Virus record (IMG/VR): IMGVR_UViG_648276660_000001
DNA: 30,880 nucleotides
Source of the DNA: a virus
Lineage: Duplodnaviria; Heunggongvirae; Uroviricota; Caudoviricetes
Reading direction: 5' to 3' (one strand)
Part shown: piece after piece, positions 5,555 to 29,901 of the stretch
Layout of the letters: the number at the start of each line of letters is the position of its first letter
Numbering within the stretch: position 1 is the stretch's first letter
Notes under the pieces: model-generated
What the model was told of the DNA's origin: nothing
The model's input: only the letters and a program-made list of their open reading frames with translations
Database searches by the model: none
Made by a program: the position numbers and the translations under genes

Positions 5555-6118
5555 ATGACCACTATAACCGATAAGAAACAGTATCCAGGCGAGCAATATC
5601 TTAATGAGCTGATCACCAACATAGAGTTTGCTGCAAGGGCACCAGTTGAAGTCGTGAGAGCAATGGCAGCAGAGCTACAGAAGCGGCGCGAAGCTGATAG
5701 TGCAGAACCTGTAAGTAATCATGAAGAGTTGCCGCTTGATTATCTCCAAGGTCAAAAAGATGGTCTTGAATGGGCTGCGCAGCTTGCAGAAGCAAATCAC
5801 CCACAAACTGGCGACTGGCTTTACGATGACCCGCTGGAGCTGGCTAAAGCTATCAGAAAAGGTCCTGACATGCCTGAATTCGATGGACCAACTCCGGTAA
5901 CTACGGATGGTTGGATAAGCTGTAGTGATCTAATGCCGGAAGACACCAAAATGTTACTGGCATTTAGTCAAGGTGAAATCGTGGCAGCATATTGGAACTG
6001 GGTTGTAAATCCAATTGATTACAAAAAATATAGAGCTTTCACGTATTTATCAGGAAATATCTTGGATGACGTAACTCACTGGATGCCGCTACCAGAGCCG
6101 CCGCAGGAGGTGAAGTGA
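5555..6118 (+). CDS. DUF551-like prophage protein (MTTIT N-terminus, paralog 3)
   Basis: AAAGGAGAGTGAT RBS then ATG 5555; C-terminal region (...[13 protein letters not shown]...HWMPLPEPP) resembles recalled DUF551 domain. Confidence 0.7.
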
Positions 6119-6459
6119 TGGACTATTCACAGTTAAGTGATTTTGAAATTAACAGAATGGTAGGAGACATAATTTTTAAAGGCCTTTGGGCATGTAAACC
6201 GGAAACATCAGGGAATAACACCAACAAATGGTATTACGGAAATACTGATACAACTTTTGAGCCATTAAACCATTTACCTGACTACTGCAATGATCCTAGC
6301 GCCTCATGGCCGATTATTGAGAAACACAGGATTTCTATCTTAGACCAGTTAACTGAATGGTGTGTTGATGCAAAAGGCGTAAGACCAATATTTGATACCA
6401 GACCTCTCCGCGCCGCCATGATTGTATTTCTCATGATGCAGGAAAATCAGAATGGCTAA
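6118..6459 (+). CDS. Hypothetical protein (nin-region type)
   Basis: AGGAGG RBS 7 nt before ATG 6118, overlapping the upstream stop; 113 aa. Confidence 0.6.
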
Positions 6460-6790
6460 ATCAGCAGCAGAGCGCAAAGCCGCTCAGAGAGCCAGACAAG
6501 CTGCATCTGGTGTGCGTAAGCTGGAAATTGTGCTTGATGCTCAGGAAATTGAAATGCTGGAGCGTAACTGCGCCGCCCGGCGCCCTGGTCGCGATCCCTA
6601 TGAAATGGCCGAGTACATCGCGCTGCTGATCCGCCAGGATGATGCACGCGTGCGCGGGCGTATAAAATCGATCAGCAGAAAACGTTGCGGTAAGTGCGGC
6701 GAGAGAGTTCCAGTTAATTCATGCCCGTGTAATGGTGACTCGCAATGCTGGGTGACTAAAGGCTGGCATGAAACGAAATTAATAGTGTGA
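6452..6790 (+). CDS. Hypothetical basic protein with C-terminal Cys cluster (CGKCG...CPC...C); possible DNA-binding or regulatory protein immediately upstream of the late operon
   Basis: ORF with start overlapping the upstream gene end; zinc-ribbon-like Cys spacing in translation; the stop codon lies inside the GTGACATGTCAC palindrome. Confidence 0.6.
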
Positions 6791-9685: not shown

Positions 9686-9762
9686 TGGCGTGGCATGCAG
9701 GATTCGAACCTGCGACCAACCGCTTAGAAGGCGGTTGCTCTGTCCAACTGAGCTAATGCCAC
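9686..9762 (-). tRNA. tRNA-Arg (anticodon UCU), phage-encoded
   Basis: Minus-strand 77 nt: GTGGCAT-TA-GCTC-AGTTGGACA-GAGC-A-ACCGC-CTTCTAA-GCGGT-TGGTC-GCAGG-TTCGAAT-CCTGC-ATGCCAC-G-CCA; 7-bp acceptor stem, canonical D, anticodon and T arms; anticodon loop CTTCTAA gives TCT; encoded CCA end. Confidence 0.9.
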
Positions 9763-27611: not shown

Positions 27612-28298
27612 TCAGAAGAACCCAGCCTTGTCGTTGATGTACTCCGCGTGGGTCTGGATATCACGCAGGCATTTGCTCACACCAACAATGTAGCAGAACA
27701 TGGTGGTCAGCTCCGCCGCCGCGCCCGATACGTCGTGCCCGTCTTCCTGTAACTGGTTCAGCAGATTCATCAGCAGTGAGTTCTCCGTCAGGCCGAGAAC
27801 ACCAGACGGAGAATGAATCAGGCTGCGGTAGCCGGGCTTCAGTGGGGCACTGTAGGTTTTGTTCTCTATCTTCATTGCCTGCATCACTGCTGATGCTGTG
27901 GCGTTGGCTACCTGGTCGGCAACTATCTTTATGCGTTCTTCCTGCGGGAGCGAGTTTTTAATGTAACTTCCGGTGCGGCGGATCTGAGGAAGAACCTCAC
28001 CTGTAACCCATTTACGAAAGCGGTAGGGGATAGTGCCTGGTGTCACTGCGTCGCGGCAGCGGAGGATCAGTGTGTAGAGGCCTGACTCGTTGATAATATT
28101 GGTTTCACCTTGACGGCCTAAGTTAAATTTAGCCCTTTCATCATCATCAAGAGATTTTATTGACATAGTGGGGTTTGTCAGTTGAAGAGCTTTAATAACG
28201 TCTTTGGCAACAAACCAAGGATTTCCATCAATAACAATGGCTCGAATGGTGGCTTCTGATTCAAAATGAAAAACAGATGGGGTTACGTTAGCAGTCAT
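27612..28298 (-). CDS. Antirepressor (Bro-N N-terminal domain plus Ant/KilA-C-like C-terminal domain)
   Basis: Translation contains FHFESEATIRAIVIDGNPWFVAKDVIKALQL, typical of Bro-N/AntA domains (recalled); ATG 28298 with GGTGA RBS 6 nt upstream (GTG at 28307 is the alternative). Confidence 0.8.
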   Translation of the reverse strand: MTANVTPSVFHFESEATIRAIVIDGNPWFVAKDVIKALQLTNPTMSIKSLDDDERAKFNLGRQGETNIINESGLYTLILRCRDAVTPGTIPYRFRKWVTGEVLPQIRRTGSYIKNSLPQEERIKIVADQVANATASAVMQAMKIENKTYSAPLKPGYRSLIHSPSGVLGLTENSLLMNLLNQLQEDGHDVSGAAAELTTMFCYIVGVSKCLRDIQTHAEYINDKAGFF

Positions 28299-28456
28299 AG
28301 TGATCACCTTTTAGTATGGTTAATCACCACCTGAGGTGCAAATCTCGTTGGTGGTGAGACGTACAGGGTTTGCACTACCGGCTAAAAGGACCCGGCGCAC
28401 CTTTCGGTGCCCCTGCACGTCCCACCATAATTCTGGCATGACTGTGCTATACGCAT

Positions 28457-28478
28457 AAAAAAACCACGTCTGGCGTGG
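28457..28478 (-). terminator. Intrinsic terminator inside the antirepressor leader (CCACG-ccaga-CGTGG followed by TTTTTTT on minus strand)
   Basis: Hairpin plus U7 read in sequence, about 160 nt upstream of the ant start. Confidence 0.5.
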
Positions 28479-28640
28479 TATGCGCCTTTTAGTAATCCGG
28501 GGTGCAAATCCCGGCACTGGATTTTGCCAGTGCCCGATTACTATGGCACAAGAGGAGTGCGATGTAAATTTACCGAAAAGGTAATGATAAGCGCGAAAAA
28601 ACATTAAAATCAACCGTATTTGGTTGATTGCGTTTAACGC

Positions 28641-28678
28641 TTGATCACCTGAAAGCAAGATATTACCTTTAAGGTAAT
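28641..28678 (+). promoter_or_regulatory. Predicted plus-strand promoter (-35 TTGATC 28641..28646, -10 TACCTT 28664..28669) overlapped by operator palindrome ATTACCTttaAGGTAAT (28662..28678)
   Basis: Read in sequence; drives the gene starting at 28698. Confidence 0.45.
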
Positions 28679-28697
28679 GTTATTGTGAGGAAAAGCA

Positions 28698-29426
28698 ATG
28701 GAAGTTTTCTGGATAGTTGTTGGTGTGGTTGCGGTGATTATTTACGTTATCAACCAGAACAAGACTAAGATCTCTGATCGTACGGTCGTTAATCAGAACA
28801 AAACGATAAAGACCGAAGATGGGGAGATAACGATTAATCGTACACAGGTGATAGAGCACACATCTACTCAGTTTCAAAAAACTGGAGGTAACGCGCCTGA
28901 TATTTCCGTACCTCCTGCTTATGATAGTGCGGTAATCCAGACATATTATAAACAGCAGGAGTTAGCAAAAGAGAGGCAACTGATTCAGCCAAAGCCGTTT
29001 ACAGCTGAGCTTCCACCTGGAGTGTCAACGCGTCCGGCATATCATGGAAGATTCCCTGGTGATGACATATCGTCTCAGTCATTTAAAAAAGCACCTCAGG
29101 CAGTATCAGAGCCAGCAAGAATATCTTCTGTATCGCCGCCAAAAGAAGAATCAGCTAACAGAGTTTCAAGCGGTAGCAAGCAGTGCTTGCGATGCAGAAT
29201 AAACCTTCCATATGAAAAATTCAGGAAATCGTCAAAAAATCCGGATGGATTGACTAAGTGGTGTGCAAGGTGTCTCGATGGCCCAAAGAATACACGTCAT
29301 ATGAAGTGGTGCCCAATTTGTAATGTCCGCAGAAAACGAACCAGCTTTTACCCTAATAATCAAAATGCGGACGGCTTAATGGCATGGTGCAAAACGTGCT
29401 GGGACGAGCACAAAGCGAAACGATAG
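28698..29426 (+). CDS. Membrane-anchored protein with C-terminal repeated zinc-ribbon motifs (cargo gene)
   Basis: GAGG RBS; N-terminal hydrophobic helix MEVFWIVVGVVAVIIYVI; C-terminus has four CxxC pairs, two in near-identical context (PDGLTKWCARCLD and ADGLMAWCKTCWD); followed by a terminator. Confidence 0.7.
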   Translation: MEVFWIVVGVVAVIIYVINQNKTKISDRTVVNQNKTIKTEDGEITINRTQVIEHTSTQFQKTGGNAPDISVPPAYDSAVIQTYYKQQELAKERQLIQPKPFTAELPPGVSTRPAYHGRFPGDDISSQSFKKAPQAVSEPARISSVSPPKEESANRVSSGSKQCLRCRINLPYEKFRKSSKNPDGLTKWCARCLDGPKNTRHMKWCPICNVRRKRTSFYPNNQNADGLMAWCKTCWDEHKAKR

Positions 29427-29428
29427 GC

Positions 29429-29452
29429 CGCTCTTGCGGCCTTTAAATTTAC
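29429..29452. terminator. Bidirectional intrinsic terminator (GGCCGC-tcttg-GCGGCC then TTTAAATTT)
   Basis: Read in sequence between convergent genes. Confidence 0.6.
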
Positions 29453-29706
29453 CGGGTTTGTTTTCGTAATTGTTCGGCACAATAGTCGAGATGTGTTTGC
29501 AGATCCTGCATAGACATCTGTGAGCTGGTGACGTAGTTAATCAGTGCAGTCAGTTCGGCAAGTGGGCCATCGACATTAAATCCATCCTTATCGAGATCCC
29601 GGAGTAATTTCATCAAGTGCGATCCCTCCACCAGTGACCTGACGCCTCCCGGCGTGTGAATCCTTTCGGTAAATCCGTCTTCCAGTGGATAGTGATACTG
29701 CTGCAT
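29449..29706 (-). CDS. Small Ant C-terminal-domain-only protein (about 85 aa), candidate SOS-inducible antirepressor
   Basis: Translation from MQQYHYPLEDGF... is homologous to the C-terminal third of the 228-aa antirepressor at 27612..28298 (shared SLL.NLL..L...G..V.G..AELT..F.Y); GGAG RBS 8 nt upstream of ATG 29706; LexA box 22 nt upstream; ORF track shows a longer version without RBS. Confidence 0.6.
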   Translation of the reverse strand: MQQYHYPLEDGFTERIHTPGGVRSLVEGSHLMKLLRDLDKDGFNVDGPLAELTALINYVTSSQMSMQDLQTHLDYCAEQLRKQTR

Positions 29707-29727
29707 CTTATCTTCTCCATGCAATAA

Positions 29728-29743
29728 CTGTATATTTATACAG
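29728..29743. promoter_or_regulatory. Canonical LexA (SOS) box CTGTATATTTATACAG
   Basis: CTGT-N8-ACAG with AT-rich centre read in sequence, overlapping the likely -10 region of the minus-strand gene starting at 29706. Confidence 0.7.
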
Positions 29744-29781
29744 TAGCAAATAATTTGTTTGCTATCCAGCACGTTTTGCAA

Positions 29782-29798
29782 ATTACCTGAAAGGTAAT
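29782..29798. promoter_or_regulatory. Operator palindrome ATTACCTgaaAGGTAAT adjacent to a TTGCAA -35-like hexamer of the SOS-box promoter
   Basis: Read in sequence. Confidence 0.5.
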
Positions 29799-29901
29799 AT
29801 CTATTCGTATTCACAGTCTTTCTATCCATATATGGTTTTTCAGGTAATAGAATAACCAGATATGCGGCGCAACGGGTGCTGCGACTATCTGGAGATTTAA
29901 C

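What the first reader, a model, noticed from the sequence alone, without database searches (positions are those of the whole stretch)
28698..29426. Membrane-anchored protein with repeated C-terminal zinc-ribbon motifs (unassigned cargo gene)
Seen in sequence: a single N-terminal transmembrane helix, a low-complexity linker, then four CxxC pairs, two embedded in near-identical DGL..WC..C contexts, suggesting tandem zinc ribbons on a membrane tether. It is expressed from its own operator-overlapped promoter, divergent from the antirepressor. This architecture does not match a standard phage structural or lysis function; it could be a superinfection-exclusion, signalling or defence-related protein.
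Basis: partly seen in the sequence, partly recalled or inferred. Interest (0 to 1): 0.55.

Follow-up and report, generated by a model that had tools for sequence, protein, structure and literature searches.

The report
Membrane-tethered double zinc-ribbon prophage protein
This is a real, conserved but uncharacterised prophage accessory gene for a protein anchored in the inner membrane with two zinc-binding modules facing the cytoplasm; it always sits next to the phage's lysogeny control genes, so it most likely protects the lysogen against other phages, though this is untested.

Summary
ORF 28698-29426(+) encodes 242 aa: one N-terminal TM helix, a conserved juxtamembrane segment, a variable disordered linker, and two homologous Cys4 zinc ribbons. 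All 8 Cys are invariant in homologues down to 20% identity. The window is an epsilon15/phiV10-like prophage of E. coli MS 198-1. PGAP calls the gene hypothetical, PHROG 6762 has no function, and PADLOC and NCBIfam give no hit.

The zinc modules belong to the Stc1-like type that accompanies HNH/endonuclease VII nucleases, but there is no nuclease motif. The domain is very basic (net +14) and under purifying selection (24 synonymous : 5 non-synonymous changes).

The gene is a self-contained cassette: a conserved promoter (TTGATC-17-TACCTT), a prophage-repressor operator (TTACC-N5-GGTAA) over the -10, then a terminator. It diverges from an isrK/C4-RNA/Bro-N antirepressor operon.

In six unrelated lambdoid prophages the homologue lies 15-54 bp downstream of cI. 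In a P22-type immI region it lies 11 bp downstream of mnt, where P22 carries sieA.

Best reading (about 0.4): a single-gene superinfection-exclusion or defence protein acting at the cytoplasmic membrane face. The repressor operator leaves an early-lytic role open. The function is inferred, not shown.

The parts
28698..29426 (+). Complete ORF (242 aa plus stop): a membrane-tethered tandem zinc-ribbon protein. It is WP_000451763.1, 'hypothetical protein', and matches PHROG 6762 over its full length.
28704..28757 (+). N-terminal transmembrane helix (residues 3-20). It is predicted to be an N-out/C-in signal anchor, with no positive n-region and no cleavage motif.
   Evidence: conserved
28758..28871 (+). 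Conserved juxtamembrane segment (residues 21-58: NQNKTK..SDRTV..TIKTEDGEI.I.RTQV). It is modelled as a beta-hairpin with low confidence (pLDDT 45-54).
28872..29171 (+). Variable, disordered P/S/Q/A-rich linker (residues 59-158). Among close alleles it shows 18 synonymous and 43 non-synonymous changes.
29178..29282 (+). Zinc-ribbon module 1 (residues 161-195; CLRC ... DGLTKWCARC).
29304..29408 (+). Zinc-ribbon module 2 (residues 203-237; CPIC ... DGLMAWCKTC), preceded and lined by basic residues (RRKR).
28641..28669 (+). Inferred sigma-70 promoter of the gene: -35 TTGATC (28641-28646), a 17-nt spacer, and -10 TACCTT (28664-28669).
   Evidence: Read from the sequence. The geometry is invariant in 8 lineages. 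The consensus scan did not report it.
28663..28677 (.). Prophage-repressor operator TTACCTTTAAGGTAA, overlapping the -10 hexamer.
28687..28691 (+). Shine-Dalgarno GAGGA, 6 nt before the ATG.
29425..29452 (+). Intrinsic-terminator-like hairpin (7-bp stem, 6 G-C pairs) with a T-rich tail. It lies between the gene and the convergent ORF that ends at 29449.
28570..28584 (.). Second copy of the operator (TTACCGAAAAGGTAA), 93 bp from the first. It abuts the leftward promoter-like site (TTTACA-17-CATAGT, 28568-28540) of the isrK/C4/antirepressor transcript.
28347..28533 (-). Context: isrK-like RNA (28457-28533) and C4 antisense RNA (28347-28432) in the leader of the antirepressor operon.
27612..28307 (-). 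Context: Bro-N antirepressor gene, divergent from the zinc-ribbon gene.

Best explanation
The gene is a self-contained accessory ('moron') cassette of an epsilon15-like prophage. It makes a single-pass inner-membrane protein whose two basic Cys4 zinc ribbons hang in the cytoplasm on a roughly 100-residue flexible tether.

The zinc ribbons are the same module that serves as the non-catalytic zinc module of HNH/endonuclease VII enzymes, but here no nuclease is attached. Expression is wired to the lysogeny switch. In this phage the prophage repressor's operator lies over the -10. In other phages the gene is co-transcribed with cI or mnt.

Most likely the protein works alone as a superinfection-exclusion or anti-phage factor, functionally analogous to P22 SieA. 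On this reading it sits at the cytoplasmic face of the inner membrane and uses its tethered zinc ribbons to capture the entering end of foreign DNA, or the cytoplasm-exposed part of the injection apparatus, so that the incoming genome cannot establish.

Shown: the architecture, its conservation, purifying selection, the cassette structure, the identity of the operator, and the synteny. Inferred: topology, zinc binding, nucleic-acid binding, timing of expression, and the exclusion function.
For: Architecture and conservation.

Nature of the zinc module:
- PHROG matches fall on the zinc modules of 'endonuclease VII', HNH, Lar-like and primase families.
- BFVD Foldseek matches HNH, beta-beta-alpha-Me and endonuclease VII nucleases and 'Stc1 domain' phage proteins, with E-values of about 1e-7 to 1e-4 (probability 1.0) for the hits so annotated. 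Single modules superpose at 1.4-1.9 A.
- The zinc domain carries net +14 and has pI 9.9.

Synteny with the lysogeny repressors:
- The homologue is directly downstream of and co-directional with a CI repressor (HTH_3 + Peptidase_S24) in six unrelated prophages. These are Aeromonas phiARM81mr, Acinetobacter HY1485, Marinobacterium, and loci L100, L105 and L106, with gaps of 15-54 bp.
- It abuts cI convergently in Oceanobacter.
- It lies 11 bp downstream of Mnt in an Ant<-Arc<-|->Mnt->gene immI region flanked by ejection-protein genes.
- It lies downstream of an Arc-like repressor in Acinetobacter corruptisaponis.

Comparison with P22: P22 carries sieA-orf59a-mnt contiguously, and the variable region lies between ejection gene 16 and tailspike gene 9. 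[quoted passage not shown] In all epsilon15-like relatives this gene lies in the equivalent interval, between the ejection-protein genes and the tailspike.

Moron features: the gene has its own promoter, operator and terminator. Its orientation differs between lineages. Among deposited phage genomes it occurs in only three phage types, six records in all. There is no conserved partner gene, and the neighbours are often unrelated secreted proteins or lipoproteins.
Against: - An exact copy of the repressor operator covers the -10. The gene may therefore be repressed in the lysogen of this phage, like the scattered C1-controlled operons of P1. That would fit an early-lytic role better than a lysogen-expressed defence.
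- There is no match to any PADLOC defence model and no sequence similarity to SieA families.
- DNA binding by this zinc module is inferred only from the company it keeps. The Pfam family it resembles (Stc1) is, from memory, a protein-protein interaction module in fission yeast.
- There is no expression or phenotype data, and no paper on the family was found.
Confidence: 0.4

Rival explanations
1. Early-phase helper of the phage's own development. The gene is derepressed when the repressor is absent, either on infection or on induction. The protein then tethers phage or host DNA, or a protein, to the inner membrane. Possible purposes are organising replication (as the membrane-anchored DNA-binding protein p16.7 does for phi29) or interfering with the host nucleoid or cell division (Kil/Icd-type takeover).
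For: - The repressor operator lies over the -10 and is paired with a second operator 93 bp away at the antirepressor promoter.
- The same operator is scattered over the prophage at early and late promoters, which resembles a P1 C1-type regulon.
- The immI-like C4 RNA/antirepressor module lies next door. In P1 that operon also carries the division inhibitor icd (from memory).
- The layout of an N-terminal TM, a linker and a basic C-terminal domain has the same logic as p16.7 (from memory).
- In cI-linked phages the gene would also be transcribed from an establishment promoter early in infection, so 'early after infection' is the one condition shared by both regulatory arrangements (inference).
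Against: - In at least six prophages the gene is 15-54 bp behind cI and must be made continuously in lysogens. This is hard to reconcile with a toxic takeover function or with a replication-only role.
- The gene is accessory and absent from most deposited relatives.
- There is no homology to p16.7, Kil or Icd.
Confidence: 0.25
2. Modulator of the lysis-lysogeny switch. A membrane-tethered zinc-finger protein sequesters or stabilises a regulator at the membrane, such as the antirepressor, the repressor, or a host factor like a protease. This would tune establishment or induction.
For: - Every context found is an immunity region: next to cI, mnt/arc, or Bro-N/Rha/KilA-N antirepressors.
- The gene shares the repressor operator with the antirepressor promoter.
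- The repressor of this prophage lacks an S24 protease domain, so induction should depend on the antirepressor. PMC9782041 shows a Bro-N antirepressor promoting lysis in a related phage.
- Stc1-type zinc fingers can mediate protein-protein contacts (from memory).
Against: - The family occurs both with cleavable CI (S24) and with non-cleavable repressors, and both with and without antirepressors, so no common regulatory partner exists.
- The gene is dispensable in most related phages.
- The region behind cI is a well-known landing site for lysogen-expressed morons such as rexAB. Adjacency alone therefore does not imply a regulatory role (established knowledge).
Confidence: 0.15
3. Lysis-related membrane protein (holin, antiholin or spanin-like), or a decaying remnant of an HNH homing endonuclease with no function of its own.
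For: - The protein has a single N-terminal TM helix and a charged C-terminus.
- The zinc modules are shared with HNH/endonuclease VII proteins.
Against: - A complete lysis cassette (two holins, a GH19 endolysin and an Rz-like DUF2514 protein) lies elsewhere in the prophage.
- The gene is never next to an endolysin in any locus examined.
- No holin or spanin family matches.
- Strong purifying selection on the zinc domain, 36 intact alleles, and a full-length family conserved from Escherichia to Acinetobacter and Marinobacterium exclude a decaying remnant.
- No HNH motif or invariant His is present.
Confidence: 0.04

Closest known systems
P22 SieA (superinfection exclusion A)
   Same: - Both are prophage-encoded inner-membrane proteins.
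- Both are single-gene and accessory.
- Both lie in the variable interval between the ejection-protein genes and the tailspike of a short-tailed temperate phage, next to mnt/arc/ant (PMC10883804).
   Different: - There is no sequence similarity.
- SieA is 162-164 aa with three predicted TM segments and no zinc ribbons. This protein has one TM and a large cytoplasmic zinc domain.
- The family also occurs in lambdoid prophages behind cI, so its target, if any, is unlikely to be specific to P22-type ejection proteins.
- Here a repressor operator covers the promoter.
Lambda rexAB and other lysogen-expressed genes placed directly downstream of cI (for example the lactococcal Sie2009-type membrane-anchored exclusion proteins next to the repressor; from memory)
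   Same: - The position is the same: 15-54 bp behind cI and co-directional with it in six prophages.
- The protein is membrane-associated.
   Different: - It is a single gene with no conserved partner.
- There is no homology to these proteins.
- The zinc-ribbon effector or sensor domain is unprecedented among them.
Stc1 domain (Pfam PF12898) and the non-catalytic Cys4 zinc modules of HNH, endonuclease VII and beta-beta-alpha-Me nucleases (PacI, Hpy99I)
   Same: - The module has the CxxC-(~20)-CxxC pattern with the F...DG..(W)C..C signature, present as a tandem pair with 8 Cys.
- PHROG and BFVD matches support the relationship.
- Relatives with arrays of the module pass the Stc1 threshold.
   Different: - The window protein scores 21.2 bits against a 24.8-bit cut-off.
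- There is no catalytic His-Me finger.
- The module is fused to a membrane anchor instead of a nuclease.
Phi29 p16.7 (membrane-anchored DNA-binding early protein; from memory)
   Same: - Both have an N-terminal TM anchor, a spacer and a C-terminal basic domain facing the cytoplasm.
- Both may be expressed early.
   Different: - There is no homology.
- p16.7 uses a helical dimeric DNA-binding domain and belongs to a lytic Bacillus phage.
- This gene is co-transcribed with cI in several prophages.
P1 immI region (C1-controlled c4-icd-ant operon)
   Same: The neighbouring operon has a C4 antisense RNA (77.8 bits) upstream of an antirepressor, with a repressor operator at its promoter.
   Different: - This comparison concerns the neighbour, not the gene itself.
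- P1 has no counterpart of the zinc-ribbon protein.
- An isrK-like RNA is added here.

Membership tests
Pfam Stc1 (PF12898) | Whole-protein score at or above the gathering cut-off (24.8 bits). | tested here: not met
   The score is 21.2 bits, E 4.4e-4. The best stretch, residues 160-193, aligns to profile positions 51-83 of 84. Relative P0181 reaches 25.0 bits, and multi-module proteins reach 29.0-60.9 bits. The module type is therefore the same, but this protein is sub-threshold.
Pfam Stc1 (PF12898) | Tandem zinc fingers with eight conserved cysteines. | tested here: met
   All 8 Cys are invariant in 35 sequences. Two modules are modelled at pLDDT 88-95.
HNH / endonuclease VII (beta-beta-alpha-Me) nucleases | Catalytic His-Me finger (HNH motif). 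| tested here: not met
   There is no HNH or Endonuclease_7 Pfam hit. No His or Asn is invariant across the family; the only invariant residues are K161, W188, D225 and the 8 Cys. PHROG hits fall only on the zinc modules of those families.
HNH / endonuclease VII (beta-beta-alpha-Me) nucleases | Accessory CxxC...CxxC zinc ribbon. | tested here: met
   phrog_1035 E 4e-12 and phrog_2633 E 1.5e-9. BFVD Foldseek hits to HNH/endonuclease VII proteins have E-values from about 2e-6 to 1e-4.
Holin | Small membrane protein encoded in the lysis cassette next to the endolysin. | tested here: not met
   The holin genes, a GH19 endolysin and an Rz-like protein lie together about 3 kb downstream. No holin family matches. 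The protein is 242 aa with a folded zinc domain.
i-spanin (Rz-like) | N-terminal TM with a periplasmic coiled-coil domain, encoded after the endolysin. | tested here: not met
   The prophage has its own DUF2514 Rz-like gene. The charge distribution predicts a cytoplasmic C-terminus. The Cys4 zinc sites and the disordered linker do not fit a coiled coil.
Moron (independent accessory transcription unit in a phage genome) | Own promoter and terminator, variable presence and position among related phages, and not required for the core life cycle. | tested here: met
   The promoter geometry is conserved. A terminator is present, and upstream terminators occur in relatives. Orientation and position differ between lineages. 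Only TL-2011b, three Yersinia phages and one Aeromonas phage carry it among 50,697 phage records.
P22 SieA-type superinfection exclusion | Sequence homology to SieA. | tested here: not met
   No SieA PHROG or Pfam family appears among the hits.
P22 SieA-type superinfection exclusion | Inner-membrane location. | tested here: inconclusive
   This is predicted only, from one TM helix and the positive-inside rule. No fractionation data exist.
P22 SieA-type superinfection exclusion | Expressed from the prophage and blocks DNA entry of superinfecting phage. | not testable with these tools
   Only synteny bears on this. Co-transcription with cI or mnt is likely in 7 loci. In this phage, however, a repressor operator overlaps the -10.
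Catalogued anti-phage defence systems (PADLOC-DB 2.0) | Match to any defence-protein model. | tested here: not met
   There are no hits at E <= 0.1 for this protein, three distant homologues and four neighbours.

The most novel reading that the evidence does not exclude
A new, widespread, single-protein anti-phage mechanism. A nuclease-derived DNA-binding zinc-ribbon pair, stripped of its nuclease and tethered to the inner membrane by a long flexible linker, intercepts incoming phage DNA or the cytoplasmic tip of the injection conduit at the point of entry. Temperate phages of several morphotypes carry it under direct control of their lysogeny repressors.
Probability: 0.3. Interest if true: 0.7.

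Novelty: new variant of a known kind. Interest (0 to 1): 0.5.

Why it matters
Accessory genes in prophage immunity regions are a proven source of exclusion and defence functions, such as rexAB, sieA, bstA and HK97 gp15. This family has not been characterised, yet it is common.

How common it is:
- One 90%-identity cluster holds 424 member sequences.
- The locus is present in 114 of 5,426 complete E. coli genomes.
- Full-length relatives occur in Enterobacterales, Aeromonas, Acinetobacter and marine Gammaproteobacteria.

If the protein blocks DNA entry from the cytoplasmic side through a tethered nucleic-acid-binding module, it would be a mechanistically new kind of exclusion protein. It would also be a small, single-gene tool.

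Even if the function differs, two results stand. The family gives a clean example of a nuclease accessory module being re-used on a membrane anchor. The operator mapping defines the repressor regulon of epsilon15-like (Uetakevirus) prophages.

Tried and rejected
- NCBIfam and PADLOC gave no hit.
- Pfam gave only a sub-threshold Stc1 match.
- A PDB sequence-profile search returned only marginal hits: PacI at E 0.084, and a thioredoxin-like protein at E 0.065 that is judged spurious.
- Foldseek against the PDB with the full model found nothing at E < 0.001.
- The afdb50 library was not available.
- The simple sigma-70 scan did not find the gene's promoter. It was recovered only by comparing relatives.
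- I looked for a conserved partner gene downstream or upstream in 20 neighbours. None was found, except that the small upstream ORF in Providencia is homologous to the window's 29449-29829 ORF. A two-gene (Rex-like) system was therefore rejected.
- The TL-2011b record annotates the region only as a misc_feature, which suggested a pseudogene. The ORF there is in fact intact, with 22 substitutions and no frameshift.
- A weak FtsH_ext hit on one distant homologue (17.9 bits against a 25.5-bit cut-off) was not relied on.
- Faint precomputed PF27269 'YonG_N' hits on distant members were also not relied on, because that family is not in the local Pfam copy.
- Literature searches for the family, for membrane-anchored zinc-ribbon exclusion proteins, and for Stc1 in phages found nothing relevant.

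Full report
**What is there**

The ORF 28698-29426(+) exists exactly as described. It has a GAGGA ribosome-binding site 6 nt before the ATG. All homologues begin with the same 'ME' start, with few exceptions.

The window is 100% identical to the chromosome of E. coli MS 198-1. There the gene is WP_000451763.1, 'hypothetical protein'. It lies inside an epsilon15/phiV10-like podovirus prophage, with portal, capsid, T7-gp14-like core and large internal proteins, a tailspike and a lysis cassette.

The nearest deposited phage is TL-2011b at 97% identity. That record marks the stretch only as a misc_feature, but its ORF is intact.

**Anatomy of the protein**

- There is one hydrophobic segment, residues 1-20. 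The flanking charges are -1 on the N side and +3 on the C side. It is modelled as a helix with pLDDT about 90.
- It has no positive n-region and no cleavage motif. The positive-inside rule therefore predicts an N-out/C-in anchor, which places the Cys-rich domain in the reducing cytoplasm. This is an inference.
- Residues 21-58 are conserved in sequence but modelled with low confidence as a beta-hairpin.
- Residues 59-158 form a P/S/Q/A-rich linker. It is disordered and varies in length.
- Residues 160-242 fold with high confidence into two small zinc-ribbon modules (pLDDT 88-95). The two modules are homologous to each other: 35% identity, no gaps, E 2e-7.
- All eight Cys are invariant in 35 full-length relatives at only 20-56% identity. 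K161, W188 and D225 are invariant as well.
- Among 36 close alleles none is disrupted. The zinc domain shows 24 synonymous against 5 non-synonymous changes, while the linker shows 18 against 43.
- The zinc domain is strongly basic, with net charge +14 and pI 9.9.

**What the zinc module is**

Pfam gives only a sub-threshold Stc1 hit, 21.2 bits against a 24.8-bit cut-off.

PHROGs place the whole protein in phrog_6762, which has no known function. The individual modules match the zinc modules of 'endonuclease VII', HNH, Lar-like and primase families.

An exhaustive profile search found 1,727 proteins at E <= 1e-3. Several dozen of the best 150 are full-length look-alikes, with TM, hairpin and two ribbons. 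In the others the module occurs alone or in arrays of up to ten copies, including in giant proteins with helicase and HEAT-repeat regions.

Against predicted viral structures the domain matches HNH, beta-beta-alpha-Me and endonuclease VII nucleases and 'Stc1 domain' phage proteins. E-values for the hits so annotated run from about 1e-7 to 1e-4, and single modules superpose at 1.4-1.9 A.

There is no HNH motif and no invariant His. This is the accessory zinc module of DNA-cutting enzymes, without the enzyme and fused to a membrane anchor.

**Regulation**

The 15-mer TTACC-N5-GGTAA occurs 10 times in the window, against 0.5 expected. Just left of the window it occurs twice in the cI-cro intergenic region and twice immediately downstream of the repressor gene. 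It is therefore the prophage repressor's operator.

That repressor is a 194-aa HTH_3 protein without an S24 protease domain.

One exact copy (28663-28677) lies upstream of the gene. A second copy (28570-28584) lies 93 bp away, at the leftward promoter-like site of the antirepressor transcript.

Aligning the upstream regions of eight lineages shows an invariant TTGA-C, a 17-nt spacer of free sequence, and an invariant TA-C-T. In the window this is TTGATC-17-TACCTT at 28641-28669. The left operator half-site forms the -10.

In a heteroimmune lineage the palindrome at the same place is TTAACC-N5-GGTTAA, which recurs elsewhere in that locus. The operator thus co-varies with the phage.

A hairpin with a T-rich tail follows the stop codon. 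In relatives an intrinsic terminator precedes the promoter.

The gene is therefore an autonomous promoter-operator-gene-terminator cassette. Its orientation relative to the antirepressor operon differs between lineages.

**Neighbours in the window**

On the other strand lie an isrK-like RNA (67.4 bits) and a C4 antisense RNA (77.8 bits). They form the leader of a Bro-N antirepressor gene. This is a P1-immI-like arrangement.

A Bro-N antirepressor of a related Uetakevirus has been shown experimentally to push the phage toward lysis (PMC9782041).

**Context elsewhere**

In all epsilon15-like relatives the gene lies in the interval between the last ejection or internal-protein gene and the tailspike. 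It is usually accompanied by an antirepressor.

Outside that group the picture is strikingly uniform.

- In six unrelated prophages the homologue follows a CI repressor (HTH_3 + Peptidase_S24) on the same strand after only 15-54 bp. These are Aeromonas phiARM81mr, Acinetobacter sp. HY1485, Marinobacterium sp., and three further genome or metagenome contigs.
- In Oceanobacter it abuts cI convergently.
- In one podovirus-type locus the order is Ant <- Arc <- | -> Mnt -> gene, with an 11-bp gap and flanking ejection-protein genes.
- In Acinetobacter corruptisaponis it follows an Arc-like repressor that is divergent from a KilA-N protein.

P22 carries sieA at this same place, as sieA-orf59a-mnt, in the variable region between ejection gene 16 and tailspike gene 9. 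[quoted passage not shown]

No partner gene is conserved next to the family. The following gene is often an unrelated secreted protein or lipoprotein.

**Interpretation**

The architecture, its conservation and the cassette structure are shown. The function is inferred.

The tight linkage to cI and mnt is typical of lysogen-expressed exclusion or defence morons. Together with the SieA-equivalent position, the membrane anchor and the nuclease-derived basic zinc ribbons, it makes a single-gene superinfection-exclusion or defence role at the cytoplasmic membrane face the best-supported reading. I put it at about 0.4.

The main counter-argument is the exact repressor operator over the -10 in this phage. 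It suggests repression in the lysogen and expression on infection or induction.

The one condition common to both regulatory arrangements is the period early after infection. An early helper or takeover role therefore remains open (about 0.25). A role in the lysis-lysogeny switch also remains open (about 0.15). Lysis functions and a decaying nuclease remnant are effectively excluded.

**Comparison with known families**

The protein is not a member of any assigned family.

- It fails the Stc1 threshold.
- It lacks the HNH catalytic motif.
- It has no holin, spanin, SieA or PADLOC match.
- I found no paper on it.

I classify it as a new variant of a known kind: a prophage immunity-region moron encoding a membrane protein. 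Interest is moderate, because it is a widespread family with an unusual and testable architecture but no functional data.

Noticed in passing
window 28347-28533 (-): The leader of the Bro-N antirepressor gene carries an isrK-like RNA (28457-28533, 67.4 bits) followed by a C4 antisense RNA (28347-28432, 77.8 bits), an arrangement like P1 immI. A 13-mer, GGTGCAAATC(T/C)CG, flanks C4 at 28335-28347 and 28501-28513. It is complementary to a C4 segment (28366-28375), which fits the C4 target sites known from P1.
   Followed up: partly
window 23, 1951, 2013, 6877, 6895, 10085, 27525, 28570, 28663, 29783; L099 3865, 3927, 4639, 4687: The palindrome TTACC-N5-GGTAA occurs 10 times in the window (0.5 expected). 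It also occurs at the cI-cro and cI-downstream regions just left of the window, so it defines a scattered repressor regulon. Sites lie before the portal operon, inside the 5' end of the small terminase gene, and at four places in the immI-like region.
   Followed up: partly
L099 3999-4583 (-), about 0.4-1 kb left of the window start: The prophage repressor is a 194-aa HTH_3 protein without a Peptidase_S24 domain. Induction is therefore probably antirepressor-dependent rather than driven by RecA autocleavage.
   Followed up: partly
window 29449-29829 (-) (PGAP calls 29449-29706): The small ORF convergent with the gene is homologous to the C-terminal domain of the Bro-N antirepressor (phrog_450, E 1e-47; about 40% identity to antirepressor residues 148-229). 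It has its own operator copy at 29783. A homologue sits upstream of the zinc-ribbon gene in Providencia.
   Followed up: partly
L001 (TL-2011b, NC_019445) 6001-6729: In TL-2011b the gene is intact (242 codons, 22 substitutions), but the record annotates it only as a misc_feature 'similar to hypothetical protein' that extends 360 bp upstream over the C4/isrK region.
   Followed up: yes
L058-L064 compared with the window: In the relatives at 60-63% identity the cassette lies after the antirepressor operon in the same orientation, preceded by a strong terminator. In the window it is divergent from that operon. The cassette or its surroundings have therefore been inverted or reshuffled.
   Followed up: partly
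window 28608-28629 (-): A terminator-like hairpin on the minus strand (AATCAACCAAATACGGTTGATT plus a T-run) lies between the two divergent promoters. Its role is unknown.
   Followed up: no
proteins P0047, P0084, P0105 and P0115: The same zinc module occurs in arrays of up to 10 copies in very large proteins that also carry ResIII/DEAD helicase, AAA_11/12 helicase or HEAT-repeat regions. This points to a nucleic-acid-related role for the module.
   Followed up: partly
distant homologues P0079, P0087, P0089, P0181 and P0183: Precomputed faint hits to a recent Pfam family, PF27269 'YonG_N', appear on these proteins. The family is not in the local Pfam copy, so the hits could not be evaluated.
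   Followed up: no
L100 8874-9716, L109 3330-4193, L089 8654-9307, L101 3019-3420, L108 5658-6017, L003 2646-3053: The gene next to the homologue is often a mutually unrelated protein with a signal peptide or lipobox. The family therefore seems to sit in clusters of envelope-directed accessory genes.
   Followed up: partly
window 9686-9762 (-): A tRNA-Arg(TCT) gene lies inside the prophage, between the terminase and portal regions.
   Followed up: no
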